Shown here: positions 17,150 to 50,178 of the stretch, piece after piece
Layout of the letters: each line of letters opens with the position of its first letter
How positions within the stretch are numbered: position 1 is the first letter of the stretch
DNA from: Auanema rhodensis
Taxonomy: Eukaryota > Animalia > Nematoda
Assembly: GCA_964057225.1 (NCBI GenBank)
Contig: OZ059898.1
Span: 13,888,001 to 13,952,000, forward strand
DNA: 64,000 bases
Direction: 5' to 3'
Notes under the pieces: model-generated
Databases searched by the model: none
The model's input: only the letters and a program-made list of their open reading frames with translations
What the model was told of the DNA's origin: nothing
Program-made: the position numbers and the translations under genes

Positions 17150-17830
17150 TTCAAAACAACAATAACGGTATGAGGAAGGTGACATATAGTAAGGGGAGAA
17201 AATCCAAACTGATATGCTTAAGCCAACACGACCTGATAGACAATCACTAATAATAATTCAGTTCGTAAAATTGTACAGGATTTTTCGGACTATAGCGATC
17301 TTAAAATTCACTTTTCATAATATTCCTCCCATTTAGGTGAGGTTTCCCGTGTAATTTCAATGCGTTATCAAAATATTTTTGGATGTTAATGGCAAAAAGT
17401 TGTCTGAACAGAAATGTAACGCAAAATAAAATAGTCCTGATCGCAAAATATGAAATAATCTCAATTTGGTGCGCAAAATTGTTTCATCCACAAAAATAAA
17501 GAAATAACCGTGGCCATTCTTTCCTCGAAGCCAAAATCAATCCTTAAAAGGAGAAAGTGTGGGCATAAATCTCAATAAAAATTATCCTTGGGTGAATTTG
17601 TTCACTAATTCATCCTAGGGTCCTCAAAAAATGCTTCGAGTTCGGGTAACAGAGTATTCGATGTTAACAGCAAGGGTATAAAAATTGTTGGGTTCAGACA
17701 GACAGAAAATTGTGAACAAACGGGAAAATATAACTTCAGTTTCAAAAAATATAAAATATCCATCTCCAAAAGGAGTGGTCCTTGCATCTGTTCCCTTTTA
17801 AACGTTGTTGGCCCCACCGTATTGTTTTAA
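17150..17830 (-). ncRNA. Conserved structured leader RNA, copy C
   Basis: Same helices as copies A and B (see findings). Confidence 0.7.
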
Positions 17831-18135
17831 GACATGGAGTAGATGGTTTAGAGATATAAGAGAATTCAGATTCAATGAATTGTATTGAAAATAACGAAAT
17901 ATACGAGAAATAGTCAAGAAATCAAGATAAAATGTTCGAGGTGGAACCTCCACGTTCCGTTATGCTCTCACGTCGATCCTATAGACCAATAAAGCCTACA
18001 AGATGAGTGTGATAGTATTCCAGATGTAGCGGTAGATAAAGAGCATAATGGATAAACATAAGACTCGAGAAAGAAAGGTTTATTATGTCTACATGATTAC
18101 AATAAGTTATATAAGTCTACATAAAGATATAAAGT

Positions 18136-28083: not shown

Positions 28084-28428
28084 CGTTCCATTCGGACTCC
28101 CCATATATGTAGCTGGAGGGTTAGAGCCAGACGACCAGAGGACCGAGGAATGGCTCCGCCTTCCCTCGTTCCCTTGGTCGGGAGTTCGCCTCTTAGCAAG
28201 CTCATGGACGGCTTGTAGTTTAGTCTTTATACTTATATTTATCTTATTGTATTGTATCTTTATCTTTGTATATTATTGTTGTAGTTTCATGCCAATAAAT
28301 CTTTCTCTCTTTCATCTTATGATTGACCTTATGCTCTTTATTCCTTACCGCTACACCAAGGAATACTATGCGCGTCATAGTATAAACTACAATGGTTTAT
28401 ATTATCGACGCAGGAGCATAACGGAACG
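28084..28428 (+). repeat. 5' LTR of element A
   Basis: Direct repeat of 39830-40174; ends CGTTCC/GGAACG; contains AATAAA. Confidence 0.96.
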
Positions 28429-28449
28429 TGGAGGTTCCACCTCGAACTC
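28429..28449 (+). promoter_or_regulatory. Primer-binding site for tRNA-Gln (bipartite)
   Basis: TGGAGGTTCCACC is complementary to the eukaryotic tRNA-Gln 3' end GGTGGAACCT-CCA; it is followed by TCGAACTC, complementary to the T-arm. Confidence 0.85.
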
Positions 28450-30197: not shown

Positions 30198-33100
30198 TTG
30201 GTGGCCACGATTTGGAAAACTCCCTCTCATTTACCCTCCGCATCGCCCAGCGAAGCACGACTATCCTATTGCTCCCGAATCTCTCTCTCTCCCAACACAC
30301 ATCTAAAAGAATCTTACGCACCTTACATCAACATCCCACACGTAGCTCACCATTCTCGGTTTTTCCAAACCAAAAGTCCTACAAAGGTGGCCAAAAGATT
30401 CTCATCGGCTTTCCCAGCCCTTTACCCGTCCGATATCAACAGTGACGCTACTGTCGCAAGTCGTACCCGAAGCCGCACCCGACTTCTCAGTGTTCAAATA
30501 GAAGAACCGCACCAACCAGACGAGAAGCCGAAGCCGCAAGTCGACAAGTTCTATACTCCCCGAGAAGGTACATATTCACCTTCTGACGACACCGACGAAG
30601 ACCCGGACTTCATCATAGCCGACGACAGCACTCAAACTCCAACTACAAATCCCAAGGTACGCTCAGTTGATACTAATAAAAATTTGCGAAAAATTCAAAA
30701 GAAAAAGCCGACAACCGCATCTGCCTCACCGGTAACCCCAGACCCAAACGCGTCGAACTTATCAGTTATCACTGATAACGCACCTTCCCCATCCCTCGGG
30801 TTAACACAAAGCCCGCAAGCGTCTTCCACGCCTATTAATCAACCACATTCGCTAACTTTAGAACCCACCCAACCTAGTGACAACCCTTCAACCTTATCAA
30901 AAATCACTGATAAGATCAAAAAGAATATCCCTAATAAGCGGAAGACAAAAACACCCAGTAAGCGCGCAACAGAAACTTTGTCAGCAGAAGCCAGCCTTGA
31001 AGGCATACAAGAAGCTTCACCCTTATCATTAACAACTGATAAGTTTAAAAACAAAAGATCTTTAACAAATCGACTGATAAAGATTTTAAACTTATCCCCA
31101 GGCGATAAAACAACACCCGGCGGAACAGCAAAACCCCGGTTTTCTTCACATAATCCTAATCTTAACAGATCAGATAGTGCGATCCCTAGCTCACGATCAA
31201 CTGATAGAACATCGCCTCAGGCACCTGGTAAAGTCATCCAGGTTCCAAGAGCCCGTTTCGCAACAACTACACCTATAATAGGCTCCTCTAGCAGAAACCC
31301 TAAGGCAATAGAAAACACTCATCAAGATCCAACAAGGAGCGAAGTGATAATATCACCTATCACATACCCTGAGGGCATCTCATCCGAAATGACCGAAACA
31401 TCACGGCTTCCAGGAGCGGGTAAATCTACCATTGCTCAGGCATTAAGCTCCCCATATTGCCCTATATACGACGGAAGTCGCAACTTTAGAGACTTCGTGG
31501 CCAAGTTTAACACCTTTGCAAACGCCTTAGGCTTAGTTATGCCCGAAAGATTAACAATCTTACCATTACTTCTCAAAAACGAACGAGCTGAAGAAGCTTA
31601 TACACAGCTTAGCGATACTATCAAGACATCTGGCTCGTGGAATACTCTCATCGAAGAACTTACCTCTAGGCTATGCCCAGAGTATAATCAAGATCCGGCG
31701 CTGATAACGCTACAGAATTCCACCCAAGGCGAGCTATCAGTAGATGGATTCGCACAAACGTTACGAAGCCTAAGCTTAAACGCTTTCTCCCATACAGACC
31801 CACACAAGGACCATATTCTTAGATCCACCTTTCTACGCGGTCTCAAAAACACAATACGCCCGGGGGTAATCAGAGCTAAACCAAAAACGTTTGCCGAGGC
31901 AATTGATAATGCCAGATGGGAAGAATCAATTGCTAACCAAGTATCCGACCCTCAGGCGCTACTGGTTAACGCAATCGATAGAACATTCCCTCCCAGGCGC
32001 GACACCGGAAGGCGAGGAATCGGCAGAGGCTATCAATCATTTAACAATAGAAACTACCAAAATTATCAAAATTATCAAAGTTATCAAAATTCATCAAATA
32101 ATCAGAAACCACAAAATCTGCAAAATTCTTTCGCAAGAAACCGCAATCTTGGTAATCGCGGTAGAAATCTCTCAAATCCAAATTGGTATCAAAGAAATAA
32201 CAACTTATCACGTAATCAGGAGAGTGATAACCGTCAACGCGGCAATAATCCCTTCAGGGGAAACAACAATAATAGAGGTAGAGGAAGGGGCTCAAGAGTC
32301 AATAATTTGACCTTGATATCCCCCTTAACACTAGCAGTAGCTTTATCAGTGATCTTATCACTAATCACTATAACTGATGCTTATCAGATGTGCACTAAAG
32401 CTACAGGTGGAGCCCTCCTTATACCCCCACCCCTGAGGAAATGCACAATACCACCTACCAAACATGTCCTCCGCACAAACATACATCTGTATACAAGAAA
32501 CCAGACGGCTCACGAATGGGATTCATGGCGATGTTCAAAAGAAATACATAAAATATGCATCAGGGATTTGCTATTTTTAAGAGATCATAACTCCTCCATT
32601 GTTCGAATTGAGCCAACAACAGAAAACGAATGTAGACTGGCTGTCCGCGACCGTAAATGGAAATCAGAAGATCTGATTAAATTGGATAGCTTGACATACG
32701 CGACAACCGAACCTACATTCTCTCCAGCGCGCTCATTCAATTACGAACAATGCGAAGAAAAAGAACGACTGGTTTTGGAAAGAGGCGTTATGACCAGGAT
32801 GCCAGACGACACCATATTGACAAATCTATTACTCAATACGGAAGGCTGTCTTGCACATCATGGCCAATGCGCATCCAATACTTCAATGATCATCTGGGAA
32901 ATCCAATCATACGAACAGAGATGCAACTATATAGACATGAGCGAATATGATGCCATCATTGGAGACAGCATAATACTGATTCCCAATACGCAGTCAGCCC
33001 TTGTTATCGACAATAAACAAATTCCAAAACAGATTACATCATGTTTTTCGCAACCTATATTTCAATCAACCACGGGCAATTATATACTCTTTCCCAAATA

Positions 33101-36100
33101 TCCAAATGACAGTAATATACACAACTTAATTGAAAGAGAATATAAAAAGTTGCCAGCTAAGCGTCAAAAAAGGGCTATAGCGCAATGCGCACTGCAATTG
33201 GACGAAAGCTGGATAAAAGAACAAGAAGACTACGAAACTTTAACATTGAACATATGCCCATACCCATTTTTACGTCCAGTAATGAGTAACCCTGGGATAT
33301 CACAAATAATTCCTATAATTCGAGCCAGACGGACGATAGATCCAACATATTCTATCGTTAAGTGGATCTCAGCACATCCCGAGCAGTTCAAATTCTTCCT
33401 ACGAAGCACTACTTCGGATAGATCAATAGAAAGATTCTTAAAAATATATGAATTCTACGACCCGGAAGAAGCAATGCTTCAATTCTTCGCCCAAAAAGAA
33501 CTGGCAGCTACCACAAGAGGAGCCGTTAAATACCTCACCTCCCTGCAACTTTTAGAGCAGATAGGCGACAGATTAACAGCAGAAGAATTTGACGAAAAAA
33601 TACTCACAAAAGAAGGAAGTTATCGAGAGCGAACCGAAAGTATAGCGCTCGAGTTGGCATTTACACCGACCATTTTCGCTCAAAATAACATGTCGGTGCC
33701 ATCAAAACAAGAAGTTTTGAAAGCATTTGTAAACATGCCGCCAATCAGGCCCGTATTATCAACTAATAACGAAAAGGAACAACTGATTATTAAAGAAACA
33801 ATTGACCTATATCACCAAGTCCTCAAACTACGTACAATAAAACCCAATCGAACAGCGGCCAGAGCAGACGATGAAAGATTTCGACATCTGCCTGTACCAA
33901 CTATTATCCTGCCAGATATAGAGAAATTATATCGAGATATGGAGAATAATTTTGGTATACCTGTTGGGCCCCATCAACAAACAAAAAGTCCTAACAAATA
34001 TACACGAAATCTTCTCATTCAAACCTTTCTACCGCTACTAGAGGATAAAAGAACACCTCCCTACTCAACCAGACGCCTGACAGACAAAACGGAATATATA
34101 ACGACAACAACGGAAGTAACAAAGCTAATCCAGGACCCTCAAACAACGCCAGAGATCGATACAACTCAAACCATAACATCCACGCGCGCGCCAACAACGG
34201 TTACATTAATATATGGTGTTCACAAAGAACAGCCTATTACTACGTTTGCAACGGTCACAGATATGTCTTTAAGATCGCAAAGAAAGCAGAGAACGTCATC
34301 ACCACCTTTGGAGATTGAAACGAAAGCAGTACAAGCGCAAGCACATTATATAGGCTCCAAAGTAAACAACGAGATACAATATAAACAGAATATATCTCAG
34401 AGAATAGCGCAAGATCATCTACAATATGCAACCACTCTTATACAGGAAGAATTGCAAAAGCATTTTATGGAATCTTACGAATCCATATGCGAGATACAAA
34501 ATAGATATCTCGAATTGTGGCGTTCAATTCTCCAAATAGAGCCAACCATAGCAATGAGAACAATCCTTGGCAGAGAAGACATAGCAGCGCGTTTCGTGGG
34601 CAGCGAAATAGTTCATGTTCATATATGCCTACCAATAGAGCCTAAAACCGTTCACCACTCTCATAAAATCAATGAAACATGTTACTTAGAGACACCAGTA
34701 ACAACCGAAGACAACAAATTATATTTCGCAGCACCGGGATCAAGAGATTTACTCTCGTACGGGAAAGAAATCGACTGCGAACACGTACCAACTGATATTT
34801 ATGAGAAAAACGGGGAATGGATGAACATTAATGGGTCTGCGGAAGTCAATCCCATCACACTTTTTGATGGAGCTCACCAACATAAAGTTACGCCTTTAAA
34901 ATTTACAGGTGCTCATCTTTATACTAATCTTTCATCAAGAGTCTATTCAATGACTACCGCAATAGCGTATGGAGCTAGTTTAGCTTCAATACGACAAAAT
35001 CACGTACTAAATACGATTCACAACGACCCAAAGATAACGTCAGCCTTTATTCTTTTGAAAAAGGGCAGCGATTATATTTCGAAAGCAACTGAGTTCACAA
35101 CTACAGCCTGGAATAGCATAAAACAATTCTTAATGGGGACAATTGAAAGAACCTTAATATTAATAGGATCTACTGTTCTAATCATTGCAGCAATCATAAT
35201 TACCATCTTTGCCGGAAAATTTTACTTTTTCAAAGCAATGCCACTACCAGTCATGCATATTCAAAGAGCAGACAACGAGCCCCCAGGCTACGAGGAAACA
35301 TTAGAACTCGTTAGCCGCCCAGACCAACCAATGCCAGAAAATATAATGAAGCAGTATTACCCGGCGCTCGTAACATTCATTCCACTAGCAATACCATTTA
35401 TTGCTTCTATTAAATCAAAAGAAACAAAGCTACCACTTATCTATATATCAGTAGAAGATAAGCTGATATTAGCTTTATGGGATTCAGGCTCGTCAGTCTC
35501 ATATGTCAGGCTATCGACATTAAAATACCTGAACATGGCTCAACACGTCAAAAAGCGACGATTAGTGGCAATGGCAGCAAACAAAACAACGTTTACATTA
35601 TACGGAAAAATAAATTTAAACATCGAAATTGCTGGCTATGAGATAGAACATACCTTTTTGGTCTCAAATGACTGTGATTGCCCAGCCCCTGCTCTTATTG
35701 GGATGGACTTTATGAGCACGCTCGACAGTGAAAACATTGATGTCAGTTTAAAACCATCGAAAAAGATGCTAGAGATCGGAAATTACGCACTCCCTTTAAT
35801 TGAACAGGACGCCATTAAACAAACGGCAATAACAGTAAATATCATCAATTTGAAGAAAAGAATCATACAACCCGATGAAGAGTCCACTATTCCAATCAAA
35901 GCTGATAGACCACTCAAATCAAACGAAGTGGTAATCTTAGGGGACAACGGAAATGCATTAGCTTCAAGTTATCCAACAGCTTTCCGTGAGACAAGTGGAG
36001 TATATGTAGTTTTCCGTAACAATACGGACAAAACATTAGCTATGGAAGCTAATTCAGTCATAGGGCAGGCAACAATAGGAGAAGTACCAAGCTGGCAAAC

Positions 36101-39100
36101 AATACAAGAAGACCCTATGCAACCATATATTCCACCAGAAGCAGATTGGGAGAATAAATTACCCCACTTTCCAAGAAATTTTATGAATGACCTTAATCTG
36201 GATAAAGCAGATTTGAATAATGAAGACAAGCACGAGCTCACAAACATAGTTAAGAACCATCGTGAGGCCTTTCTTAATGAAGATAGGAAGATAGGTCTAT
36301 TTAAAGGACCCATTGAGCATACAATCCCACTAAGATCGGATATGGACATGCCAAGGTCAAGAATAACGAGGATTCCACTTGGTAAACAGGAAGAAGTGGA
36401 AAAGCAAGTAAAAGAAATGCTAGAGCAAGGCATAATCGAACCCTCTACATCCCTCTTCAATAGCCCTGCTGTGCTAGTGAAGAAGAAGGATGAGACATAT
36501 AGGTTCGTGACAGATTTTCGAGCCCTCAATAGTGTCACGCGTAAACAAACATACGTTATACCAAGCATATCGGATATAGTTGACATGGCAGCTGGAGCTC
36601 AATTCTTCTCAAACTTTGATTTAGTATCAGGATTTTTTCAAATATCACTACGTAAATCTGATCGTCCTTTAACAGCATTTACAACAACATCAGGCACGTA
36701 TCAATATAAAAGAATGCCTATGGGTCTCTGTGGAGCCCCTCATACTTTTCAAACAGCAGTAAGATATTTGCAAAGTAAATGCTCTTGCAAATTATTTGTA
36801 TACTTGGACGATCTGCTGATAATCTCTGATACAAGAAAGCAACACCTTGAAGATATCGACGAATTATTACATGCGGTCGAAAGTTTGGGAATGAAAATTA
36901 AGTTAAAGAAATGTGCTTTTGCTCAACCAGAAGTGAAATTTCTCGGATTAATAATTGGAAGAGAAGGAATAAAACCGGACCCTCAAAAAGTGGCTGCGAT
37001 ACAAGAATATCCGGCACCAAAGAACGCAACAGGCGTTCGCGCATTCTTAGGAATGGTCGGATTTTTTCGCAAATTCATTAAAGATTTTGCAAGTATCGCA
37101 AGCCCATTGTACGATTTGACAAAGACGGATACCGAATTCGCTTGGGAAAAGCAACACCAGGAAGCTGTAGATCGATTAAAAAGAAGTCTCACCCAAGCGC
37201 CCGTATTAAGTCCACCAAAATCTGATCGATTATTCATTATCGAGAGTGACGGCAGCAACATAGCAGTGGGCGCAGTATTATTGCAACCAGAAGATCCCAC
37301 GCAACCATTGAAGCATCTTCATCCTATCGCATTTGCCAGCAGAAAACTGGTAAAAGCGGAACGCAATTACGCACCAATCGAAATTGAAGCCTTAGGGTTA
37401 GTATACGCACTGAATCAATTTCGCACATACATACTGGGAACGCATACTATATGTATCACTGACCATCGCCCTCTCACAAGTTTACTAACTCGCAGAGACC
37501 TATTTGGTCGTCTTGCTAAATTTCAGTTAGTAATACAAGAATACGACATTGAGATAAGGTACAGAGAGGGCCAGCTCAATAAAGTATGTGATGCATTGTC
37601 ACGTTATATAGGCGATGAAGCAAATGATGCAAAGCCGGAAAAGAAGAAAAAGAAAAACGTAGAATCGATCAGAATAAATACTATTGATACACCTGCCATA
37701 AAAGAAATTCAACAAAATACTCCATGGATAAAGAAAACAATCGCGGACATCGAATATAGAACGCAAAAGAAAATGGTCTCTAACGATAGATATTGCGTTA
37801 TAAATGGATTACTCTACACAAAACCAACAGACAAGAAACCACATCCTGCAATCGTTGTGCCACAAGATCATCCAATCAAGGACGAGATAATAGAATTATT
37901 TCACGAAGATCCTACAATCGCAGCGCATCAAGGAATTAATAAAACTAAAGAAGCTATCCTACGGAGATTTTATTGGACCAACATGCAAAATGATATCATG
38001 ATATATATCAAAAACTGCATTAAATGCGCACAAAGGAAGAAGGACCCACATTCTATGACAGTACAGCCAATAGGTCAATTTGAAATACCGACCAAGCCTT
38101 TTGAACGAGTTCATATGGATGTAATGGGACCTTTTCCCCCGTCAAAAAGGAATTGTACTTACGTTATTACCATCCAGGATGCTTTTACTAAATGGTCAAC
38201 AACGATAGCAGTACCGCAAATTACGACAGAAATAACAATTGACAGATTTCTACGCAACTTTGTATACATATACGGACCGCCTCATCGACTGATCACCGAT
38301 AGAGGATCTAATTTTGTATCTCAAAAGTTTGAAGAAATGTGTACAAAACTGGGAATTCAACATGAACCCACCCTTCCTCACCAAAAGAACTCAAACGGAC
38401 AAGTCGAAAGACTACACAGAACTCTTGAGGAAGGATTAACACACTACTTGAAGGAAGATCTAAGCGACTGGGATAGCGTATTGCCGAAAATTACATTCGC
38501 TATCAATAACATTCAGCATGCTACAACAGGCATAGCCCCATACGTAGCACTTTTTGGAAAAGAATGCAGAATGAAAATTGATGCCGAATTACCGGGAACC
38601 ATAACAAAAATCAAAGAGATTTCGGAAGAATTACTCACGAGAAGACCTCAAATGATGAAAATAGACCAAATAATACGTGAACGTATCGCCCAAAACCAAG
38701 AAAACGCCAGAAAGAAGAAGGATAGAACACAAAGGACGCACGAAAGGAACATTCAACCCGGCGACATGGTGATGACAACAATAAAGTCACATAAAATTGG
38801 TCAGAAACTGAGGAAAAGCTATGACGGACCTTACGAAGTTATTAACGTACAAGGATCCAAGGTGCAGATAAGGAATTCATCAGGAAAGATACAAGATATC
38901 CACAAGGATAATCTCAAACTCTTCTCAAACGCTACTCAAAATATCACTCACAATACCCGTTCTAATACACGCAACAATCACGAAGAAGAAGAAGAGGACA
39001 GCGATATAGAGATACTAAGAGTGATCAAAAGAAACGAGCAAGATAACACCGATAGCGAACCGGAATCAGAGAACGAAGATGGAGACGAATTATGGTTACC

Positions 39101-39131
39101 ACGGATGAAAAATCAAAAAGAGAAAGCATGA
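30198..39131 (+). CDS. Gag-Env-Pol polyprotein: disordered N-terminus, capsid-like domain, N/Q/R-rich NC-like region, signal peptide, gB-like fusion glycoprotein, TM, aspartic protease, RT, RNase H, integrase
   Basis: Signal ~32307-32381; CEIQN..LW..ARFVG..C..CY; TM ~35151-35230; LWDSGS (35481); YLDD (36801); RNase H ESDG..NYAPIEIEAL..TDH; integrase H-H-C-C, D-D-E and GPY. The true start is uncertain: the first ATG is at 31389. Confidence 0.95.
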   Translation: MVATIWKTPSHLPSASPSEARLSYCSRISLSPNTHLKESYAPYINIPHVAHHSRFFQTKSPTKVAKRFSSAFPALYPSDINSDATVASRTRSRTRLLSVQIEEPHQPDEKPKPQVDKFYTPREGTYSPSDDTDEDPDFIIADDSTQTPTTNPKVRSVDTNKNLRKIQKKKPTTASASPVTPDPNASNLSVITDNAPSPSLGLTQSPQASSTPINQPHSLTLEPTQPSDNPSTLSKITDKIKKNIPNKRKTKTPSKRATETLSAEASLEGIQEASPLSLTTDKFKNKRSLTNRLIKILNLSPGDKTTPGGTAKPRFSSHNPNLNRSDSAIPSSRSTDRTSPQAPGKVIQVPRARFATTTPIIGSSSRNPKAIENTHQDPTRSEVIISPITYPEGISSEMTETSRLPGAGKSTIAQALSSPYCPIYDGSRNFRDFVAKFNTFANALGLVMPERLTILPLLLKNERAEEAYTQLSDTIKTSGSWNTLIEELTSRLCPEYNQDPALITLQNSTQGELSVDGFAQTLRSLSLNAFSHTDPHKDHILRSTFLRGLKNTIRPGVIRAKPKTFAEAIDNARWEESIANQVSDPQALLVNAIDRTFPPRRDTGRRGIGRGYQSFNNRNYQNYQNYQSYQNSSNNQKPQNLQNSFARNRNLGNRGRNLSNPNWYQRNNNLSRNQESDNRQRGNNPFRGNNNNRGRGRGSRVNNLTLISPLTLAVALSVILSLITITDAYQMCTKATGGALLIPPPLRKCTIPPTKHVLRTNIHLYTRNQTAHEWDSWRCSKEIHKICIRDLLFLRDHNSSIVRIEPTTENECRLAVRDRKWKSEDLIKLDSLTYATTEPTFSPARSFNYEQCEEKERLVLERGVMTRMPDDTILTNLLLNTEGCLAHHGQCASNTSMIIWEIQSYEQRCNYIDMSEYDAIIGDSIILIPNTQSALVIDNKQIPKQITSCFSQPIFQSTTGNYILFPKYPNDSNIHNLIEREYKKLPAKRQKRAIAQCALQLDESWIKEQEDYETLTLNICPYPFLRPVMSNPGISQIIPIIRARRTIDPTYSIVKWISAHPEQFKFFLRSTTSDRSIERFLKIYEFYDPEEAMLQFFAQKELAATTRGAVKYLTSLQLLEQIGDRLTAEEFDEKILTKEGSYRERTESIALELAFTPTIFAQNNMSVPSKQEVLKAFVNMPPIRPVLSTNNEKEQLIIKETIDLYHQVLKLRTIKPNRTAARADDERFRHLPVPTIILPDIEKLYRDMENNFGIPVGPHQQTKSPNKYTRNLLIQTFLPLLEDKRTPPYSTRRLTDKTEYITTTTEVTKLIQDPQTTPEIDTTQTITSTRAPTTVTLIYGVHKEQPITTFATVTDMSLRSQRKQRTSSPPLEIETKAVQAQAHYIGSKVNNEIQYKQNISQRIAQDHLQYATTLIQEELQKHFMESYESICEIQNRYLELWRSILQIEPTIAMRTILGREDIAARFVGSEIVHVHICLPIEPKTVHHSHKINETCYLETPVTTEDNKLYFAAPGSRDLLSYGKEIDCEHVPTDIYEKNGEWMNINGSAEVNPITLFDGAHQHKVTPLKFTGAHLYTNLSSRVYSMTTAIAYGASLASIRQNHVLNTIHNDPKITSAFILLKKGSDYISKATEFTTTAWNSIKQFLMGTIERTLILIGSTVLIIAAIIITIFAGKFYFFKAMPLPVMHIQRADNEPPGYEETLELVSRPDQPMPENIMKQYYPALVTFIPLAIPFIASIKSKETKLPLIYISVEDKLILALWDSGSSVSYVRLSTLKYLNMAQHVKKRRLVAMAANKTTFTLYGKINLNIEIAGYEIEHTFLVSNDCDCPAPALIGMDFMSTLDSENIDVSLKPSKKMLEIGNYALPLIEQDAIKQTAITVNIINLKKRIIQPDEESTIPIKADRPLKSNEVVILGDNGNALASSYPTAFRETSGVYVVFRNNTDKTLAMEANSVIGQATIGEVPSWQTIQEDPMQPYIPPEADWENKLPHFPRNFMNDLNLDKADLNNEDKHELTNIVKNHREAFLNEDRKIGLFKGPIEHTIPLRSDMDMPRSRITRIPLGKQEEVEKQVKEMLEQGIIEPSTSLFNSPAVLVKKKDETYRFVTDFRALNSVTRKQTYVIPSISDIVDMAAGAQFFSNFDLVSGFFQISLRKSDRPLTAFTTTSGTYQYKRMPMGLCGAPHTFQTAVRYLQSKCSCKLFVYLDDLLIISDTRKQHLEDIDELLHAVESLGMKIKLKKCAFAQPEVKFLGLIIGREGIKPDPQKVAAIQEYPAPKNATGVRAFLGMVGFFRKFIKDFASIASPLYDLTKTDTEFAWEKQHQEAVDRLKRSLTQAPVLSPPKSDRLFIIESDGSNIAVGAVLLQPEDPTQPLKHLHPIAFASRKLVKAERNYAPIEIEALGLVYALNQFRTYILGTHTICITDHRPLTSLLTRRDLFGRLAKFQLVIQEYDIEIRYREGQLNKVCDALSRYIGDEANDAKPEKKKKKNVESIRINTIDTPAIKEIQQNTPWIKKTIADIEYRTQKKMVSNDRYCVINGLLYTKPTDKKPHPAIVVPQDHPIKDEIIELFHEDPTIAAHQGINKTKEAILRRFYWTNMQNDIMIYIKNCIKCAQRKKDPHSMTVQPIGQFEIPTKPFERVHMDVMGPFPPSKRNCTYVITIQDAFTKWSTTIAVPQITTEITIDRFLRNFVYIYGPPHRLITDRGSNFVSQKFEEMCTKLGIQHEPTLPHQKNSNGQVERLHRTLEEGLTHYLKEDLSDWDSVLPKITFAINNIQHATTGIAPYVALFGKECRMKIDAELPGTITKIKEISEELLTRRPQMMKIDQIIRERIAQNQENARKKKDRTQRTHERNIQPGDMVMTTIKSHKIGQKLRKSYDGPYEVINVQGSKVQIRNSSGKIQDIHKDNLKLFSNATQNITHNTRSNTRNNHEEEEEDSDIEILRVIKRNEQDNTDSEPESENEDGDELWLPRMKNQKEKA

Positions 39132-39829: not shown

Positions 39830-40174
39830 CGTTCCATTCGGACTCCCCATATATGTAGCTGGAGGGTTAGAGCCAGACGACCAGAGGACCGAGGAATGGC
39901 TCCGCCTTCCCTCGTTCCCTTGGTCGGGAGTTCGCCTCTTAGCAAGCTCATGGACGGCTTGTAGTTTAGTCTTTATACTTATATTTATCTTATTGTATTG
40001 TATCTTTATCTTTGTATATTATTGTTGTAGTTTCATGCCAATAAATCTTTCTCTCTTTCATCTTATGATTGACCTTATGCTCTTTATTCCTTACCGCTAC
40101 ACCAAGGAATACTATGCGCGTCATAGTATAAACTACAATGGTTTATATTATCGACGCAGGAGCATAACGGAACG
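39830..40174 (+). repeat. 3' LTR of element A
   Basis: Direct repeat of 28084-28428. Confidence 0.96.
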
Positions 40175-40357: not shown

Positions 40358-40715
40358 CGTTCCGTTATGCTCCCGCGTCGATCTTACAGACCAATGGAGT
40401 CTACAAGATGAGCGTGGTAGTATTCCAGATGTAGCGGTTAAACATGGAGCATAAGGATAAACATAAGACTCGAGAAAGATTGGTTTATTATATCTACGTG
40501 ATTACAATAAGATACATATAACTAAGTAAAGGTTAAACTAATAGAGAACAGAGAGAGAACGACCAACCATCCATGATCGTCCCTGAGGCAAAGCTGAAGT
40601 GTTGTAATATGGAAAAGGGCGGGTCGTCTTCTCTCAGTCTCGCATTCTCTGACTCTAACCCGCCTGCTACAGCTTCGTCATATGAATGTAATGCATTGAT
40701 CATCCGAATGGAACG
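40358..40715 (-). repeat. 3' LTR of element B
   Basis: Direct repeat of 51624-51981; no difference seen. Confidence 0.96.
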
Positions 40716-41409
40716 TGCCCTTTTTCGAGTTTATGTCGCGTCCTCGCGACAATCAAAAGTTTTGACTTGATTAACTGTAGCAGAAGGGTTAATGTGTGTA
40801 TTAAAGTACATGTTACAATACAATATTTTACGTAAAATTCTTATAATATGAACATAATACAATATAAAACATCAGTATCTGAAAAGAATTAAAAAAAATT
40901 TTTTAACCAAATTATGAAAGTTTTAACCCTCTTTAACGAATACTAGACTATGTTTTATTGGCGAACGTGCTTATAAAATAATAAAAAAAAAAGTTTTTAA
41001 GCATAACGCTCCAACAAGTGTAGATAAAAAGTTAACTATTTTTTTTGCTAGAGCTCGGTTGTTTGTTTCAATTTGTGTGAGTTTAGAAAAAAAAGAAAAG
41101 TTTTGCGTAATACCAAATAACTTCCAAATTGAGTCATTGATTACTCAAGTGAAGACTGTTGCTCAGATATTGTTGCAAACTATGTCTTTCATTTTTCATC
41201 TCATCTAGTATGGGGAAGTTAGTTGAAATTAGGAAGGTTCGAACTATATGATAAAAGAATTATCTTCTCACATTTCCCGTGTTCATTATGCTCTAGTTTA
41301 CTTTTTGACTTAAGAGTGACTTGTTTTAGAGGAGTCGTTACAAAATTTGTGTTCTAGTATTACTTTAAAGAAAGTTATTACAAAACAATTTACAATAAAA
41401 TCTCATGAG

Positions 41410-44400
41410 TTAATGGTTTTTTCTTGATGGTAGCCAATTTGTATCCGAAAGGTCTTCTGGTTCGTCATAAGAGTCTTCCTCGTTGTTGTTTCCGTTGATA
41501 ACCTCTATGATTTCGATATCGCTGTCATCGTCTGAGCTGTCTGTACGTGTACTGGGCTTATGTGCGATTCCGTCATCTGTTTCTCGATTAAATAATTTGA
41601 GATTGTCCTTGTGAACGTCTTGAATCTTTCCGAAAAGGTTTTTGATTTGAACCATGTTTCCCTTCACATTTATAACTTCAAATGGTCCATCATAAGCTTT
41701 CCGAAGCTTTTGTCCTGGCTTGTGCATTTTCACAGCTAACATAACGCAGTCTCCTTCTTGTATATCTCTTTCGTGAGTGCGTAATCGAGCATCATGTTTC
41801 TTTTTTGCTAATTCTTGATGCTTTTCCAAATTTTCTTGAATGATTGTTTTCTGTTTGCTTCGGATTTTCTCAATATTTTCAATCTCCTTTGAAATTTCCT
41901 TTGGTTCAGTTGTTTCGGGGTATAAATCTTTATCCAATCTCAAACGGCTTTCTTTCCCGAATAGTACAACGTATGGTGATATTCCTGTGGTTGCATGCGT
42001 TGTGGTGTTCAATGCAAAGGTAATTTTTGGCAAAAACATGTCCCAATCAGTGACATCTTCGTTGAGATAATGTGTGAGTCCTTCTTCTAACGTTCTATGA
42101 AGTCTTTCTACTTGTCCATTGGAATTCTTCTGATGTGGGAGTGTTGATTCATGTTTGATACCGAGTTTTTCGCACATGTCTTCAAATTTCCTTGATAGGA
42201 AGTTGGAACCGCGGTCTGTTATTAAGCGATTCGGTGGTCCATAGACATATACAAAGTTTCTGAGGAATCTATCAATGACAACTTCACTAACAATTGTTGG
42301 TATGGCGATAGTTGTAGCCCATTTGGAGAAAGAGTCTTGTATTGTGAGGACATAGCTGTTGTTCCTTTTTGATGTTGGGAATGGTCCCATGATATCCATA
42401 TGTATTCTCTCAAATGGTTTTGATGGTATGTTAAATTGACCCATCGGTTGTACGGTCATAGCATGAGGATCTTTCTTTCGTTGTGCACATTTGATGCACT
42501 GTTTTACGTATTTTGCTATGTCGTTCTGCATGTTCGTCCAGGAAAATCTTCGTACTATGGCTTCTTTTGTTTTGTTGATTCCTTGATGCGCCCCGATTGT
42601 TGGGTCTTCATGAAATTCTTCAATGATTTTGTTAATTATATCACTATCCGATGGCAATATTAACGCTGGATGAGGTCTTTTGACGCTTGGTTTTGTGTAG
42701 AGTAAGTTGTTTATAACACAATAACGATCATTTTGAATCATATTTTTCTTCGTTCTGTATTCAATCTCAGCTATTGTTCTCTTGATCCAAGGAGTATTTT
42801 GTTGGATTGAGCTGAATTCTGGTAACTTCACAACATTTACTTGTTGTGTCTCAATTTTCTCTTTCGAATTCGTCTTTTGTTTCTTGTTCGACGTCTTTGG
42901 ATCGTTAGCTTCATCTCCAATGTATCTAGAGAGTGCGTCACAGACTTTGTTTAATCTGCCTTCTCGATATTTGATCTCAATATCGTATTCCTGTATGACC
43001 AATTGGAACTTTGCTAGTCTTCCAAATAGGTCTCTTCTAGTTAGTAAGCTTGTCAATGGGCGATGATCGGTGATGCAAATTGAATGTGATCCAAGTATGT
43101 ATGTTCGAAACTGTGCTAGAGCGTAAACTAAGCCTAAGGCTTCTATCTCTATGGGAGCATAGTTACGTTCTGCTTTTACTAATTTCCTACTTGCGAAAGC
43201 AATTGGATGTAAGTTCTTGAATGGTTCGTTTGGATCTTCGGGCTGCAGTAATACTGCGCCTATGGCGATGTTGCTGCCATCACTTTCAATGATGAAAGTT
43301 CGGTCTGATCGTGGTGGTTTCAGTACCGGTGCTTCGATTAGTCGTTCCTTTAGCTTATCTAGTGAACGTTGACATTCGCTAGTCCAATTGAAGTCTGCGT
43401 CTAGCTTAGTAAGGTCATACAGCGGACTTGCTATATGTGCAAAATCTTTAATAAATTTTCTAAAGAATCCGACCATTCCTAAGAATGCTCTTACTCCTGT
43501 GGGTGTTTGAGGAGCAGGGTAATCGCGGATGGCGGAAACTTTCTGTTGATCGGGCTTAACTCCGTCTCTTCCGACAATGAGTCCGAGAAATTTCACTTCT
43601 GGTCTTGCAAATGAACATTTCTTGATTTTAATCTTAAATCCTAGTCTTTCTACAGCGAGTAATACTTCTTTGATGTCTTCGAGGTGTTGTTCTGCGCTGT
43701 CTGATATGACTAGTAAATCGTCCAAATAGACAAATAGTCGGCATTTACATTTACTTTGGAGATATCTCACGGCTGTTTGAAAGGTATGTGGCGCACCACA
43801 TAATCCCATAGGCATTCTCCTGTATTGATAAGTCCCACTATTGGTGGTAAAGGATGTGAGTGGTCTATCCTTCTTCAATAATGGTATTTGGAAAAAGCCA
43901 GAAACAAGATCAAAATTAGAAAAGTATTGTGATCCAGCCGCTAAGTCAATGATATCAGAGATGTTAGGAATCACATATGTTTGTTTTCTTGTAACGTTAT
44001 TTAAGGCTCGGAAATCCGTAACGAAACGGAATGTTTCGTCTTTTTTCTTAACGAGAACGACAGGGCTGTTGAACAAAGATGTCGATCGTTCTATTATCCC
44101 TTGCTCGAGCATTTCTTGGACTTGTCTTTCTACCTCTTCTTGTCTCCCGAGAGGTATACGTGAAATTCGTGGCTTTGGCATATCCATATCCGTTCGTAGT
44201 GGTATCTTGTGTTCTACTGGTCCTTTGAACAATCCTATCTTTTTATCTTCATTGAGGAATGCCTTCTTACGTTGACGAATGATGTTTCGTAGTTCGTCTT
44301 TTTGTCGTTGCGTAAGATCAGCCTCTTTTAGGTCAAGTTCTTTCATGAAATCACCAGGGAAGTGAGGTAATTTGCCTTCCCAGTCTGCTTCTGGTGGGAT

Positions 44401-47400
44401 ATAGTCGTACTGTTGTTCTGTTGAGAAGATTTCATAGTCCGGTATAGATCCTATTTCGGCTTCTGCAATCACAGTGCCGGCCGGTATTTCTATGAATTCT
44501 TTAGAATTGTTCCGGAATTGGATATTGATGGAGTTAACATCGCGAAATGCTGTGTCGTATCGAGGTGAGAGAGGAGTATTGTCGTTTGGTTTAATCATAG
44601 CGATTAAGTCTTCTCCGATTGGGTTCTCTAACTGGACTTGGAAATTAAAAACTTGTCGAGGAAGTAGACTCCGCGGCTCCAAGGTTATCAAATTAACAGT
44701 TTTTGATATCCTGTTAATATCCCCGTTAATTCCGCTAGCCAAAGGTACTACATGATTTCCAATTTCCAGTGTTCTTTTGTATGGTCTTAGTTTCATGCCA
44801 ATGTTTTGACAGTCAAGTGTTTTCATGAAATCTAATCCAATCAACGCTGGCGATGGACAGTCTTTGTCGTCTGATATGAAGAATGTATGGTCGATTTCGT
44901 AACCGGCTATTTCGACGGTTAAGTCGATAGTACCAATGAATACAAATTCTGATCCGTTCGCTGTTGTTGCTCTTAATGTATTCTTCTTAACAAAGTCATT
45001 CAAAGCTAAGTAGTGTAGTGTCGATATTCTTATGTAACTGACGGACGAACCTGAGTCCCATAAAGTTAGGATCAGTCTATCATTAACAGTCATCCATAGA
45101 AGTGGTAGTGCTTGATCTTTCTTTTTGGAAATCGAGCAAACTAATGGTAGTGCGATTGGTATGAATGTGAGCATTGATGGATAGTATTGTTTCATTATGT
45201 GTCTTGGAATCGGTTGATCCGGATGACTAACTAATTCCAAAGTTTCTTCGTATGTTGGTAGATCACTGTCGTGATCTTTGAGTGCAATATGCATAACTGG
45301 TATGCCTACTGGTTTGAAGAAATAGATCTTTACAATGAAACCTATCACAAAGAGTATGATGGTAAATAATGTAATTGCACCGATCGTTATTAGTGTTCGC
45401 TCAATCGTTCCTGCAATTGTATCGATGAATGACTTCCATGTGCTCTTGGTGAATTCTTGAGCTTTCGATATGTAGTCGCTACTTTTCTTTAGTACACTGA
45501 ATGTAGCTGATATCTTTGGATCATTGTGAATTGTGTGAAGAACGTGATTCTGACGAATCGATGCTAAACTCGCACCGTAAGCTATGGCTGTGGTCATTGA
45601 GTATACACGAGACGATAAATTAGTGTATAAGTGAGCTCCGGTGAATTTTAATGGTGTTATTTTTTCGTGATGAAGTCCGTCCCACATTGATACAAGATTG
45701 ACGTCTGCAGTCCCATTAATTCCTTTCCATTCACCTTCGCTAGACCAGATATCTGTTGGTACGTGATCACAGCTTATTTCTTTACCATGAGGTAAAAGAT
45801 CCTTGGATCCGGGTGCTGCAAACAGTAACTGTCCGTCTTGTGTCCAGACTGGGGTTTCGAGATAGCATGTGCCATTTACGGTGTGATTGTGATAAATGGT
45901 TTTCTCTAGCACTGTAGGGCATACATGTATATGCAAAATTTCATTGCCTACAAACCGTGCGGCTATATCTTCTCTTCCCAGTATTGTTCGCATTGCGATT
46001 GTTGGTTCAATTTGTAGAATTGATTTCCATAATTCCAGATACCGATTTTGTATCTAGCAAATCGATTCGTATGATTCTTCAAAATGTTTCTGCAATTCCT
46101 CTTGGATCATTGTAGTAGCATACTGTAAATGATCTTGGGCTATTTTGTTCGATATATTTTGACGAAACTCTTGTACCGAGTCAATTTTCGTTGCTATGTA
46201 TCTCGCATTTGCTTCCACTAAATTTGAGGTTTCTACTGATGGTGTTGAGGAAGCTCGGTTTTTTCGAATCAATGTTGGAGAGGCTTCGGTTGTCTCTTGT
46301 ATTTTTGGAATCTGTGCGTCTTTGTATATGGCATAGCTTCTTGTTGTTGGTGGCGAACGAGCGGTTGATGTTGTTGTGCGTGCTGTTGTCGCAGCGGTCG
46401 TGTGAGGCGCCGTTGTTGATGGCTGTTGCCTCCATGATGGTGCTCTTGTGGTGGTTGTTGCATTTGTGTGAGGATTGTTCGTTATATGCGGCTGTATTGT
46501 GGTAACTGATTGGATTGTTCCCTTCTGTTCGATCAAAGGTTGGACTGGTGTCACAACCGCGCCGCTAGCCGCGCCGCCTGCCGCGACGCTGGATGTCCGC
46601 GTTGCGATTTGCCGAAAATTTGTTTCATTTTTCTCTGCCCTTAAGATTTGAAGTTGTTCTTGTGTTATCCTACTCGATGTATAAGGTGTTTTTACATTAT
46701 TGAGCAGGGGTAAAAATATTTCCAATAATAATTTCTTTGAAAGATTGCTGGGCTTGATCAGCTTAGGGTGTGGACCGATCGGTATTCCATAATTATTCTT
46801 CCTGTCATAAAATAGTTTATCTGTATTTGGCATGAATTGTCGTGATGCTGGCAATTTTATAAATTTTCTGTCATCAATAAATGCTGCAGTTTTATTCCAT
46901 CGTACTGTTGTGAGGGTTTTTAGTTCTCTTAGTAAATTGATCGTTGCCTTAATGAATTCGTATTTCTTCTCTTCCTCGTCAGTTAGTATACGTTTCCTTA
47001 TTGGTGGCATTTGTATGAACGTTTGTAGGACTTCTTGTCGTGATGGAACTGTCAGTCCTTCTTCAATTATAACTGGTGTATTGGTTAAATTGAGAGCTAT
47101 GCTTTCAATTCGTTCGCGATATGAACCTTCTTTCTTCCTTATGATTTCATCGAATTCGATTACTGTCAAACGATCTGATATTTGTTCGAGAAGCTGTTCA
47201 GATGTTAAGTATGATATTGCTGCCTTTGTAGTAATGGCTAATTCTCTTTGTGCTATATAATATAGCAGAGCTTCTTCTTTATCACTGAAATCGTATTGCT
47301 TGAGAAAATGTCGAACAGAATGTTCATTTATTTGAATTCTGAAGAAAAATTCGAATTTTTCTTTATGTGATGTTATCCATGCCTTTAGAGAGTATGTTGG

Positions 47401-50178
47401 ATCTACTAAACGTCTTCCTTTGATTATAGGAATAATTGAAGTAATACCGGGATTACTCATTAATGGTCTTAGGAAAGTATATGGACAGACGTGAAGCAAT
47501 ACTGTTTCATAATCTTCAACTTCGTTGATCCGATCTTGATCCAGTGGGAAAGAACATCCTTCGGTGACTGCACGTTTTGGTCTTTTAAACGGCAGCTTTT
47601 TGAACTCTCTTTCAATAAGGGTGGTTATATTGTTGTCGTTTGGAAATTTAGGAAGAATGATATAATTTCCTGATGTCGTATGGAACGCTGGCTGCCTGAA
47701 GCAAGAAGAAATAGGTTTCGGAGTTGGTTTGCTCGAAAGAATAAGTGCCGATTGTGTACTAGGGATTAAAATAGTATCTTGACTAATGATAGCGTCATAT
47801 GTATGCATATCGATGTAATTACAACGTGAAGCAGTGGTTTGTGGGTCCCATATTATTATTGATGTACTTGATTCACAATTACCATGATGTGCATTGCATC
47901 CTTCCGTGTTTAATATTAAGTTTGACAATATTGTATCGTCAGGCATACGGGTCATGACTCCGCGCTCTAATATTAGACGTGACCGCTCCTCGCACGCGTC
48001 GCGGTTGAACGCGCGCGCTGGGTCATAGGAGGGCTCCGGAGTTGCTTGGGTGATACTATCAATGCGTTGCAGTTCTATGTTATTCCACTTGCGATCGCGG
48101 ATCGCCTGTCTGCATTCGCGCTCTCCTATAGGCTGTATTCTATTTATTGTTCTGTTCGTATCGCGGAGGAATAGCAGGTCTCGTACGCATAACTTGTGTA
48201 CTTCCTCTGAACAACGCCACGCATCCCATTCGTGTGCTGTGTGATTTCTTGTGTACAGATGAACTTCTGTACGTAGCACATGGTTTTTCTCTGTTAATCT
48301 GCATTTTCTGATTGTTGGTGGCATAAGTAATGCGCCTCCTGTTGCTCTTGTACAGATTTGATATGTAGATGCACAGGGCAAGAATATTGCTGTTGTTATT
48401 GCCATGATAACTGTGAGCGTCAAAGGCGAAAGGGTGACAGAGTTTATTCTTGTTGAGCTTCTATCTCTTCCTCTTGAGTTGTCTCTTGGATTTTTGAATT
48501 GAACTCTTCTTTGTCCGTTGTTGTTATTGAATCTACCTCGTTGGTTGTTATGACGAAAATTATAATTTCTTTGATGCCAATCAGAACTCGATTGCCTATT
48601 ATCTTGTTCGTTATAATTTGTACGGCGATTATTATTAGCGAAAGAACCGTAACGGTTTCGATTATTATTGAAATTAGAAAAGTTTTTATTTTTTTGATAA
48701 TTTTGATAATTTTGATTATTTTGATAATTTTGATTATTTCTTATCATTTGGTTATCGCGTTGATAATTGCGATTAAATGTTTGGCTATCTCGTCTCTCAT
48801 CATTACGCGCAAAGGGTGCTAGTGCTTTGTTCACAGCGTTGACCAACATCGATTGCGTGTCTGTTGTTTGGTTCACTATCGATTCCTCCCAGCGAGCTGC
48901 TTCAATCGCTTCTGTGAAGGATTTTGGCTTTGCTCGGATCACAGCTGGTTTTAGAGAATTTTTAAGTCCTCTGAGGAATGTTGATCTCAGTATTTGATCT
49001 TTATGTGGGTCATCAGATGCAAATGCACTCAATGCCATTGTTCTTAATGCTTGGGCGTATGCATCAATTGTCAATTCCCCTTGCGTGGTGTTTTGAAGGT
49101 TAATAAGTGCAGGGTCTTGGTTATATTCAGGGCAGAGCTTCGATGTTAGTGCTCTAATCAGATCATTCCACGAACCAGTTGTTTTAAGTTGTTCAGGAAC
49201 TTGTCTGTAAGCTTCTTCTGCTGCTTCATTTTTGAGAAGCAAAGGAAGAAGTGCTAACCTTTCAGGGATAACAAGGCCAATGGCATTAGCAAACAAGTTG
49301 AATTTACCCGTAAAATCACGGAAGTTACGACTGCCGTCGTAAGTTGGACAGTAAGGCGAAAGTAAGGCTTGCGCGATTGTTGTTTTCCCTGCCCCAGGTA
49401 GTGAGGAAACAGCTTCCGTCATGATGTTATTCGTACGGGTAGATGGTATTTTGATCGTTCTACCTGTTATTGGTGGGGTCTCCAAAATAGGGGTTGTTTG
49501 CGTGGATGGAATAGGTCTATTGGGTGCCTTAGGAAGTGAGTCTGTTGTTGTTAAGATGGGAGTAGAAGTTTGATGAATACTGGTATTTGGTGCAGGTGGT
49601 TGAATTGGTGAGATATTAATGTTAGGGACTGATGAATATCTGCTTTTGCGCTTGGTGTTGAAAGTTTTATCTTTAGGCGAAAGGTTAAAAAGATCAGTAA
49701 CAATGTTTCTAAGAGAACTAAGCCCACCCGCGCTAGAAGTTTTTGAAAGTAAAGGGGAATCGGTTGGTTCGGTTAGTGAGAGAGAGAGAGAAACGTCGCT
49801 GATGTTTTGATTTTTCTTATTTTTATTAGAATTAGAGGAGCGTACCTTTTTAGGAGTGATCGGTGTTTGTTCCTCCACAATGATTGATAGTTCTTCTTCT
49901 ATAGTAGGTACGTAGTCCGGGTCGCCTAGTTGTTCAGTAGGTGAGACAGAATCAGTAGTAGGAATAAGGAAATTATCCGGCTTCTTGTCGACTTTCTGCT
50001 CCTCTTCTAATATAGCGACGTCTTGAGCTCGAGCTCGACTTCTGGTAAAGGGAGCTGAGTCTTGGGAATCGAAATGCGTACTTATAGGTACGGCTGAATG
50101 GAATCTCTTAGCCACCTTGCTAGAACTCTTGGTTTGAAAAAACCTTGAGTGCTTGGTAACGTGTGGGATGTTGAGACG
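41410..50178 (-). pseudogene. Gag-Env-Pol polyprotein of element B with one in-frame TAG (46054-46056)
   Basis: ORFs 46054-50115 and 41410-45993 are in frame. I-C-*-I-Q-N-R aligns to I-C-E-I-Q-N-R in A (GAG>TAG). All catalytic motifs are intact. Confidence 0.93.

What the first reader, a model, noticed from the sequence alone, without database searches (positions are those of the whole stretch)
32307..35291. Herpesvirus gB-like class III fusion protein placed between Gag and protease in one ORF
Seen: after Gag come a hydrophobic signal ending TDA|YQMC (B: AST|YQIC), a Cys-rich ectodomain with N-glycan sequons, and a TM; the protease follows in frame. The segment ICEIQNRYLELWRSILQIEPTIAMRTILGREDIAARFVGSEIVHVHIC...TCYLETPV follows the herpesvirus gB domain III-IV pattern as I recall it (WCELQN..L.LW....K.NP...ARMLGD....C.PV...CYSRP.V), a fold shared by chuvirus glycoproteins. 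Established: env normally lies 3' of pol as a separate or spliced ORF, and gB/chuvirus-like envs are known from BEL/Pao elements such as Ascaris Tas. Inference: this is a Ty3/Gypsy element with capsid-signal-glycoprotein-enzyme topology like a flavivirus polyprotein. Signal peptidase would release Env and leave Pol on the cytosolic Env tail, making it a candidate infectious nematode retrovirus. I cannot confirm whether this order has been described.
Basis: partly seen in the sequence, partly recalled or inferred. Interest (0 to 1): 0.88.

Follow-up and report, generated by a model that had tools for sequence, protein, structure and literature searches.

The report
Nematode retrovirus-like element, envelope mid-polyprotein
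This is a young virus-like jumping gene, likely of a nematode, that carries a herpes-gB-like envelope protein between its capsid and its enzymes in one long reading frame; that layout is already published for nematodes, and what is added here is a likely processing and budding scheme and an extra envelope domain with no structural match found.

Summary
One 2,982-codon frame (30183-39131) runs Gag - signal - gB-type glycoprotein - TM - protease - RT/RNase H - integrase. The glycoprotein matches herpesvirus gB by profile (E 3e-15) and by Foldseek. It lies in a complete LTR element (identical 345-bp LTRs, 4-bp TSD, tRNA-Gln PBS), beside a second, diverged element with one stop in env and a third, deleted one, all inside a tRNA-Gly tandem array. 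The RT sits in a nematode clade (SH-aLRT 100), next to Auanema and Caenorhabditis proteins with the same order. The order is known: Chary & Hayashi (PMC13524379) list 36 nematode gB-type elements and state that nematode elements are GAG-ENV-POL, citing Sacco 2022. This scan also noted the layout before in flatworm DNA. Verdict: new member of a known kind. Extras I did not find in print: a ~290-aa helical domain inserted after the furin site with no fold match; late-domain motifs in the Env tail (P[TS]AP in 13 of 62 tails, PPGY here); and an AUG-less, apparently coding N-terminal extension of Gag. Infectivity and expression are untested.

The parts
28084..28428 (+). Element A 5' LTR (345 bp, ends CGTTCC...GGAACG), inserted inside a tRNA-Gly gene; TSD GGGG
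   Evidence: 0 mismatches to the 3' LTR
28429..28440 (+). Primer-binding site for tRNA-Gln
   Evidence: reverse complement equals the 12-nt tRNA end listed as Gln_UUG_CUG for two Caenorhabditis elements
30327..31388 (+). AUG-less in-frame N-terminal extension of Gag (S/T/P-rich, conserved first ~30 aa)
   Evidence: coding status inferred from third-position bias and a stop-free frame
31389..32297 (+). Gag: Ty3-like capsid, then an N/R/G-rich nucleocapsid region without a zinc knuckle
   Evidence: Retrotrans_gag E 8e-4, Ty3_capsid E 0.01; stronger in B; no CCHC
32298..32381 (+). Internal signal sequence; predicted signal-peptidase site before Y734
32382..33173 (+). Env N-terminal beta-rich part (inferred fusion domains I/II), ending in furin site RQKR
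33174..34052 (+). Inserted ~290-aa helical domain with no fold match found
34053..34307 (+). Thr-rich, low-confidence (mucin-like) linker
34308..35153 (+). gB domain III long helix, domain IV, domain V / membrane-proximal region
35154..35222 (+). Env transmembrane anchor
   Evidence: KD 2.9, Hessa sum -4.2
35223..35429 (+). Cytosolic tail/linker with PPGY (35280-35291) and a Pro-broken hydrophobic stretch before the protease
35430..35732 (+). Aspartic protease (WDSG)
36360..37547 (+). Reverse transcriptase (YLDD) and RNase H
37860..39131 (+). Integrase (HHCC zinc finger, rve core) and acidic C-terminal tail to the stop
39830..40174 (+). Element A 3' LTR, preceded by a polypurine tract
40358..51981 (-). 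Element B: sister family (RT 82% aa identical), identical 358-bp LTRs, TSD ATTT, same gene order, one in-frame stop in env at 46054-46056
14605..18135 (-). Element C: internally deleted B-like copy with truncated 5' LTR, at the point where the tRNA array inverts

Best explanation
This is a recently inserted Ty3/gypsy LTR element of the known nematode GAG-ENV-POL, gB-envelope kind, whose single polyprotein is likely threaded into the ER membrane twice and would then be cut into capsid, fusogen and enzymes. Shown: one frame, the domain order, a gB-type envelope, intact catalytic motifs, identical LTRs. Inferred: Gag is made in the cytosol; the basic-then-hydrophobic stretch at aa 706-733 acts as an internal signal; signal peptidase frees Env at Y734 while Gag stays tethered by its C-terminal anchor (no myristoylation signal is needed or seen); the TM at 1658-1680 stops transfer, so tail, protease, RT and integrase are cytosolic; furin cuts at RQKR, exposing an inserted helical domain that may serve attachment; the viral protease, cutting hydrophobic-x/x-hydrophobic sites, would release NC from the anchor and Pol from the Env tail; a PPxY-type motif in the tail would recruit the host budding machinery. 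Gag, Env and Pol would be made 1:1:1 and co-packaged because they share a membrane.
For: Frame and order. gB: profile of alignment A2 hits 54 herpesvirus gB sequences (best E 2.9e-15) and, weakly, 4 entries named only 'Glycoprotein' (E 0.02-0.06), 58 hits in all. AF2 model mean pLDDT 76.7 with a 75-residue central helix. All listed Foldseek PDB rows are gB (best E 5e-10); BFVD top hits are nyami-, chu- and rhabdo-like glycoproteins and gB (best E 1e-14). Ty3 RT is the best solved match (E 1e-71 vs 3e-45 for the next family). RT tree: A+B sister to Auanema (97) inside a 21-row nematode clade (100). Signal-like stretch (KD >=1.3) before the Env start in 65 of 72 proteins; 4 K/R on its N side vs 1 on its C side. 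The third hydrophobic stretch is weak (KD 1.7, Hessa +5.3), followed by three Lys, and is hydrophilic in many relatives. [VI][NH]x[VIL] in 51 of 62 tails vs shuffle mean 11.9, max 21; P[TS]AP in 13 of 62 vs mean 0.2, max 2. Ty1 protease sites have V/I at P2 and P2' (PMC6952103, passages).
Against: No topology or signal-peptide predictor was available; hydropathy is a crude proxy. Global TM-scores to gB are low (TMq 0.14-0.17, rmsd mostly ~25 A) and model pTM is 0.53, so the match is domain-level. Pfam Glycoprotein_B is under its cutoff. Sequon conservation does not single out the ectodomain against B (7 of 10 vs 5 of 8 in Gag, 4 of 8 in Pol). PPxY is not enriched over shuffles (4 of 62 vs max 4), A and B lack P[TS]AP, and their tails do not match the strict protease motif. 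The tails are related sequences, and a few were mis-delimited (over 200 aa). The third hydrophobic stretch reaches KD 2.1 in one Caenorhabditis protein. Relatives are gene predictions, at least two of them chimeric.
Confidence: 0.8

Rival explanations
1. Same element, but Pol is mainly made from a spliced RNA that skips env; the full frame serves only to make Gag-Env, and its read-through into Pol is incidental.
For: A 1:1:1 ratio is unusual; an earlier scan note reports a spliced message in a flatworm element of this layout (e1-8573470, unchecked).
Against: The Env tail-to-protease linker is stop-free and 61% identical between A and B, and continuous in the 62 proteins that hold both Env C-part and protease. 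No spliced form was seen, but the runs barely cover the element.
Confidence: 0.12
2. Env is kept for an intracellular role (budding into ER or endosomes, germline cell-to-cell passage) and the element has no free infectious phase.
For: No expression or particle data. Element C has lost env and pol yet kept LTRs, PBS and leader, consistent with copies that move in trans. PMC13524379 (discussion, part 1) says the route of transmission is unknown outside Drosophila.
Against: Env is under protein-level constraint (66-70% aa identity A vs B, with 57-62% of identical residues using different codons; 16 of 16 Cys kept) and keeps a furin site. This argues for function but does not separate the two routes.
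Confidence: 0.35
3. The third hydrophobic stretch (aa 1725-1743) is a real TM, placing protease and RT in the lumen unless cut away first.
For: KD 1.4-2.1 in the Caenorhabditis/Auanema subgroup.
Against: Three prolines, positive Hessa sum, Lys on its C side, absent in many relatives; luminal RT/IN would not work (established knowledge).
Confidence: 0.05
4. The order is an artefact: a nested insertion or mis-assembly of an env-bearing BEL/Pao piece into a gypsy element.
For: gB-like envs also occur in BEL/Pao elements (PMC13524379 methods passage), and some hits carry the same env at the C-terminus.
Against: Two diverged elements in the window and 22 of 22 scanned relatives share the order; single frame; no BEL-type Pfam family is listed for A or B.
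Confidence: 0.01

Closest known systems
Nematode GAG-ENV-POL 'errantiviruses' with HSV/gB-type ENV (Chary & Hayashi, eLife 2026, PMC13524379; seen: abstract, section 5 part 1, section 6 part 2, section 9 part 1, word-search passages, all 36 Nematoda rows of Supplementary file 1)
   Same: Ty3/gypsy Pol, gB-type Env between gag and pol, LTR-to-LTR length about 11-12 kb, tRNA-Gln PBS (8 of 36 nematode rows, all Caenorhabditis; 2 with the same 12-mer).
   Different: No Auanema row among the 36. In the parts read there is no account of processing, late domains, the post-furin insert or an AUG-less start. Figures and the other supplements were not read and may bear on this.
NERV clade, Sacco et al. 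2022, J Gen Virol 103:1739 (reference seen; text not held; content recalled)
   Same: Recalled: continuous gag-env-pro-pol ORF, metavirus-like RT, glycoprotein like Nyamiviridae, chromadorean nematodes, young LTRs. Here a Nyavirus glycoprotein is BFVD rank 4 and a Meloidogyne protein is in the same RT clade.
   Different: Recalled extra ORFs (Upf1-like helicase, small protein) are not evident here. No published NERV sequence was in hand for direct comparison.
Herpesvirus gB / class III fusogens
   Same: Domain III helix and domain IV by sequence profile, overall fold by Foldseek; furin site in the domain II-III linker region.
   Different: About 10% identity; carries a ~380-aa insert; made from inside a polyprotein; no gD/gH/gL partners encoded.
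Atlas virus and other env-bearing nematode belpaoviruses (PMC9094657; search listing and start of abstract only)
   Same: Intact nematode endogenous virus with a captured RNA-virus-like glycoprotein.
   Different: Phlebovirus-like Gn-Gc envelope; BEL/Pao family and env after pol (recalled).
Flavivirus/hepacivirus polyprotein topology (recalled)
   Same: Capsid anchored by the signal sequence of the following glycoprotein; enzymes downstream on the cytosolic side.
   Different: Analogy only; unrelated proteins.

Membership tests
Ty3/gypsy (Metaviridae) | LTRs, PBS, polypurine tract, target-site duplication | tested here: met
   identical LTRs, PBS, PPT, 4-bp TSD in A and B
Ty3/gypsy (Metaviridae) | Pol order PR-RT-RH-IN with Ty3-like RT and capsid | tested here: met
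   order; Ty3 RT best (E 1e-71); Retrotrans_gag above cutoff in B, below in A
Ty3/gypsy (Metaviridae) | Placement against named reference clades (Cer1, Mag, Drosophila errantiviruses) | not tested
   Those sequences were not in hand; the trees use only search hits
Nematode GAG-ENV-POL gB-type errantivirus / NERV | env between gag and protease | tested here: met
Nematode GAG-ENV-POL gB-type errantivirus / NERV | One continuous frame (recalled for NERV) | tested here: met
   A uninterrupted over 2,982 codons; B has one stop
Nematode GAG-ENV-POL gB-type errantivirus / NERV | HSV/gB-type Env | tested here: met
Nematode GAG-ENV-POL gB-type errantivirus / NERV | RT groups with nematode elements of this layout | tested here: met
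   21-row clade, SH-aLRT 100, quick tree of 35 chosen rows; 72 rows, support 90-94; the one-clade test did not finish
Nematode GAG-ENV-POL gB-type errantivirus / NERV | Monophyly with the published NERV or errantivirus sequences themselves | tested here: inconclusive
   Database proteins from the same species (C. remanei, C. nigoni, C. brenneri, M. enterolobii, P. davidi) were used, not the published copies
Nematode GAG-ENV-POL gB-type errantivirus / NERV | Chromadorean host; multiple near-identical copies | not testable with these tools
   No whole genome held; host inferred from nearest relatives
Class III viral fusogen | gB/G-like fold with long central helix and beta fusion domain | tested here: met
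   domain-level, global TM low
Class III viral fusogen | Trimer and membrane-fusion activity | not tested
   No complex prediction run; activity needs experiment
BEL/Pao (Belpaoviridae) with gB-like env | env after pol and BEL-type Pol | tested here: not met
   env precedes pol; RT closest to Ty3 and inside a gypsy tree

The most novel reading that the evidence does not exclude
These elements assemble 'upside down' relative to retroviruses: Gag is held at the membrane by its C-terminal signal anchor, budding is driven by late domains (P[TS]AP or PPxY) carried on the Env cytoplasmic tail rather than on Gag, the furin cut exposes a built-in, fast-changing attachment domain of undescribed fold that lets a lone gB-type fusogen work without gD/gH/gL, and a longer Gag starts at a non-AUG codon.
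Probability: 0.25. Interest if true: 0.68.

Novelty: new member of a known kind. Interest (0 to 1): 0.36.

Why it matters
The gene order is not new, so the headline claim scores low. How such a polyprotein is processed and how a gB-like protein enters cells without herpesvirus partner proteins is stated as unknown in PMC13524379. The motifs found here (signal junction, protease-type sites, tail late domains, post-furin insert, AUG-less start) turn that question into specific tests on protein fragments.

Tried and rejected
Expression and splicing: no RNA holder listed; three small runs of the same species label, laid on A and B, covered only scattered pieces of related copies and showed no GT-AG joint. 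Inserted domain: no Pfam family for the query at E<=0.5, Atlas hits all under 0.9 (best 0.83), BFVD 0 matches at E<=0.001, VIA wide best Z 3.3 of 48,161 chains; this does not show that the fold is new. N-terminal extension: no homologue among 88 candidates, no Pfam family. Sequon conservation as topology evidence: not discriminating. PPxY enrichment: not above shuffles. Ty3-like position-specific tRNA targeting: rejected as unproven; the three insertions fall at three different places in the repeat unit, the array is about 30 of 36 kb of non-element DNA (my arithmetic; 3 of 3 by chance about 0.6), and related LTR ends in the runs join sequence unlike the array (table 7). VIA second look at the full Env model was not obtained. 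The careful tree and the one-clade test did not finish. No complex prediction was run. Literature: 'gag-env-pol' with retrotransposon and envelope found only PMC13524379; the late-domain search listed 10 papers, none on these elements by title or abstract start; the Sacco text is not held.
Full report
Observation. A single stop-to-stop frame of 2,982 codons runs from 30183 to 39131 on the + strand; the first AUG is at 31389. The finding's coordinates are aa 709-1703 of that frame. Pfam gives the order Retrotrans_gag (468-555), Monjiviricetes_fusion (1361-1553, E 8e-17) with Glycoprotein_B (1410-1502, E 4.5e-9, under its cutoff), aspartic protease (1756), RT (2099), RNase H (2321), integrase (2564, 2637). 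Two strong hydrophobic stretches bracket the glycoprotein: 712-730 and 1658-1676. The quoted motifs are present as written.

The element. The frame lies in a complete LTR element, A: 345-bp LTRs at 28084-28428 and 39830-40174 with no mismatch, ends CGTTCC...GGAACG, a GGGG target duplication, a PBS and a polypurine tract. The PBS is the reverse complement of the tRNA-Gln end listed for two Caenorhabditis elements in the eLife supplement. A second element, B (40358-51981, minus strand), has identical 358-bp LTRs, an ATTT duplication, the same gene order, 82% RT and 66-70% Env core identity to A, and one in-frame stop in env at 46054-46056. A third, C (14605-18135), is a deleted B-like copy. All three sit in a tandem tRNA-Gly array. 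Protease, RT and integrase motifs of A are intact.

The envelope. A profile of 43 aligned Env sequences hits 58 PDB sequences at E<=1: 54 herpesvirus gB entries (best E 2.9e-15) and 4 weak 'Glycoprotein' entries. The AF2 model of the 922-aa ectodomain has mean pLDDT 76.7, pTM 0.53, a beta-rich N part, a 75-residue helix and a beta domain after it. Foldseek returns only gB among the listed PDB rows (best E 5e-10) and nyami-, chu- and rhabdo-like glycoproteins and gB in BFVD (best E 1e-14); TM-scores are low (0.11-0.24 by query), so the match is at domain level. All 16 ectodomain cysteines are kept in B and in an Auanema protein. After the furin site RQKR (994-997) comes a ~290-aa insert, 52% identical in B and 42% in Auanema, then a Thr-rich linker. 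Folded alone it is helical, pLDDT 77.4, pTM 0.77, and found no match in Pfam, the Atlas, BFVD or 48,161 PDB representatives. The same linker ranges from 72 to 568 aa across 96 relatives, so it is a variable module; a role in attachment is inference.

Relatives. The RT-RNase H region is closest to Ty3 among solved structures (E 1e-71). Of 58 long proteins found with the RT region, 26 carry a gB or Monjiviricetes Pfam tag. I scanned 22 chosen env-bearing proteins (20, 2), and all 22 have env before protease or RT, including proteins named from Auanema, five Caenorhabditis species, Diploscapter, Ancylostoma, Panagrolaimus and Meloidogyne. These are gene predictions and two are chimeric. In a quick tree of 35 chosen rows, A and B are sisters (99), next to Auanema (97), inside a 21-row nematode clade (100); a 72-row quick tree agrees with lower support, 90-94 (partial RTs, four redundant rows and P0001 left out). 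The host is therefore likely a rhabditid nematode; no genome is held.

What is known. Chary & Hayashi (PMC13524379; abstract, section 5 part 1, section 6 part 2, section 9 part 1, passages, and the 36 Nematoda rows of Supplementary file 1) state that elements of Nematoda, Bryozoa and Platyhelminthes carry only HSV/gB-type ENV, arranged GAG-ENV-POL, and credit Sacco et al. 2022 for the nematode order. All 36 rows are ENV_HSV; 8 use tRNA-Gln. The Sacco text is not held; I recall that it describes a continuous gag-env-pro-pol frame. Earlier notes of this scan describe the layout in flatworm DNA.

How it likely works. Shown: frame, order, fold class, intact motifs. Inferred: the first hydrophobic stretch has 4 basic residues before it and 1 after, and a similar stretch precedes the Env start in 65 of 72 proteins, which fits an internal signal cleaved at Y734. 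The second stretch stops transfer. A third, weaker stretch before the protease (KD 1.7, three prolines, Lys after it) is absent from many relatives, so Pol is most likely cytosolic. A [VI][NH]x[VIL] motif occurs in 51 of 62 Env tails (shuffle mean 11.9, max 21) and in 25 of 72 pre-signal regions, including VNNL in A; Ty1 protease sites have V/I at P2 and P2' (PMC6952103, passages), so these are likely viral-protease sites. A and B have VMHI there, which fits the looser pattern only. P[TS]AP, a retroviral late-domain motif (label recalled), occurs in 13 of 62 tails (shuffle mean 0.2, max 2), in several branches of the tree. A, B and one Auanema protein instead share PPGY, LPTY and PPSY, a class not enriched over shuffles. 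The tails are related and some were mis-delimited, so these counts are leads, not probabilities.

The start. The frame is open 402 codons (A) and 252 codons (B) before the first AUG, and no AUG occurs in any frame for 1,331 and 957 nt, against longest gaps of 461 and 342 elsewhere in the ORFs (the stretch was defined after the fact). The first 27 codons of a shared peptide differ at 5, 2 and 13 sites by codon position; over about 105 codons all three pairwise comparisons of A, B and C are third-position biased, and the other frames hold many stops. This points to a translated, AUG-less extension. Against: C has an out-of-frame AUG in the motif, deleted copies keep this region as they would a packaging signal, and no homologue was found elsewhere.

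Not shown. Expression, splicing, particles, fusion, copy number and tRNA targeting. The three available runs do not hold the elements beyond fragments.

Verdict. A real, young, intact member of a published kind. Interest 0.36: the headline is known; the processing model, tail late domains, inserted domain and AUG-less start are testable additions that I did not find in the searches, with the caveat that the Sacco text, the eLife figures and its other supplements were not seen.

Noticed in passing
window 6076-14455 (+), 18188-27873 and 52058-63873 (-): Tandem array of ~267-bp units, each with a tRNA-Gly(TCC) gene: 111 Gly calls plus 2 with anticodon TCA among 114 tRNA calls. The array flips orientation at 14.5-18.1 kb.
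   Followed up: partly
window 14605-18135 (-): Third family member C, lacking nearly all coding sequence but keeping leader, PBS, the first ~120 codons of the N-terminal extension (duplicated as a 358-bp exact repeat, 15989-16346 / 16366-16723) and the integrase tail. Its 5' LTR is cut at the array inversion. A contig of run X1 shows a similar deletion (30626 joined to 39142), so this region may also hold a packaging signal.
   Followed up: partly
window 40174-40358: Elements A and B, both with identical LTRs, lie tail to tail only ~180 bp apart in the same tRNA repeat unit: A inside the tRNA gene, B about 120 bp upstream of it.
   Followed up: partly
window 30058-31389 (+) and 50379-49422 (-): No AUG in any frame for 1,331 nt (A; about 8 expected) and 957 nt (B; about 4 expected) before the first in-frame AUG. 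In B and C the conserved peptide starts 2 codons after a stop, leaving a shared ATC as a candidate start. C has an out-of-frame AUG inside the motif, which counts against.
   Followed up: partly
LTR ends of A, B, C: LTRs begin and end with CG (CGTTCC...GGAACG inverted repeat), not the usual TG...CA (usual form recalled).
   Followed up: no
window 2330-3471 (+): Two ORFs with an ISXO2/IS1595-like (Merlin-type, recalled) DDE transposase domain, E 7e-8 and 1e-10, inside a ~320-bp direct duplication.
   Followed up: no
proteins: The Env linker between domains II and III varies from 72 to 568 aa across 96 proteins (median 120; 17 at 350 or more), often right after a furin site. Several unnamed proteins carry the same Env at the C-terminus instead.
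   Followed up: partly
window 28432-30326: Long (~1.9 kb) leader between PBS and the coding region, with blocks conserved among A, B and C; structure not examined.
   Followed up: no
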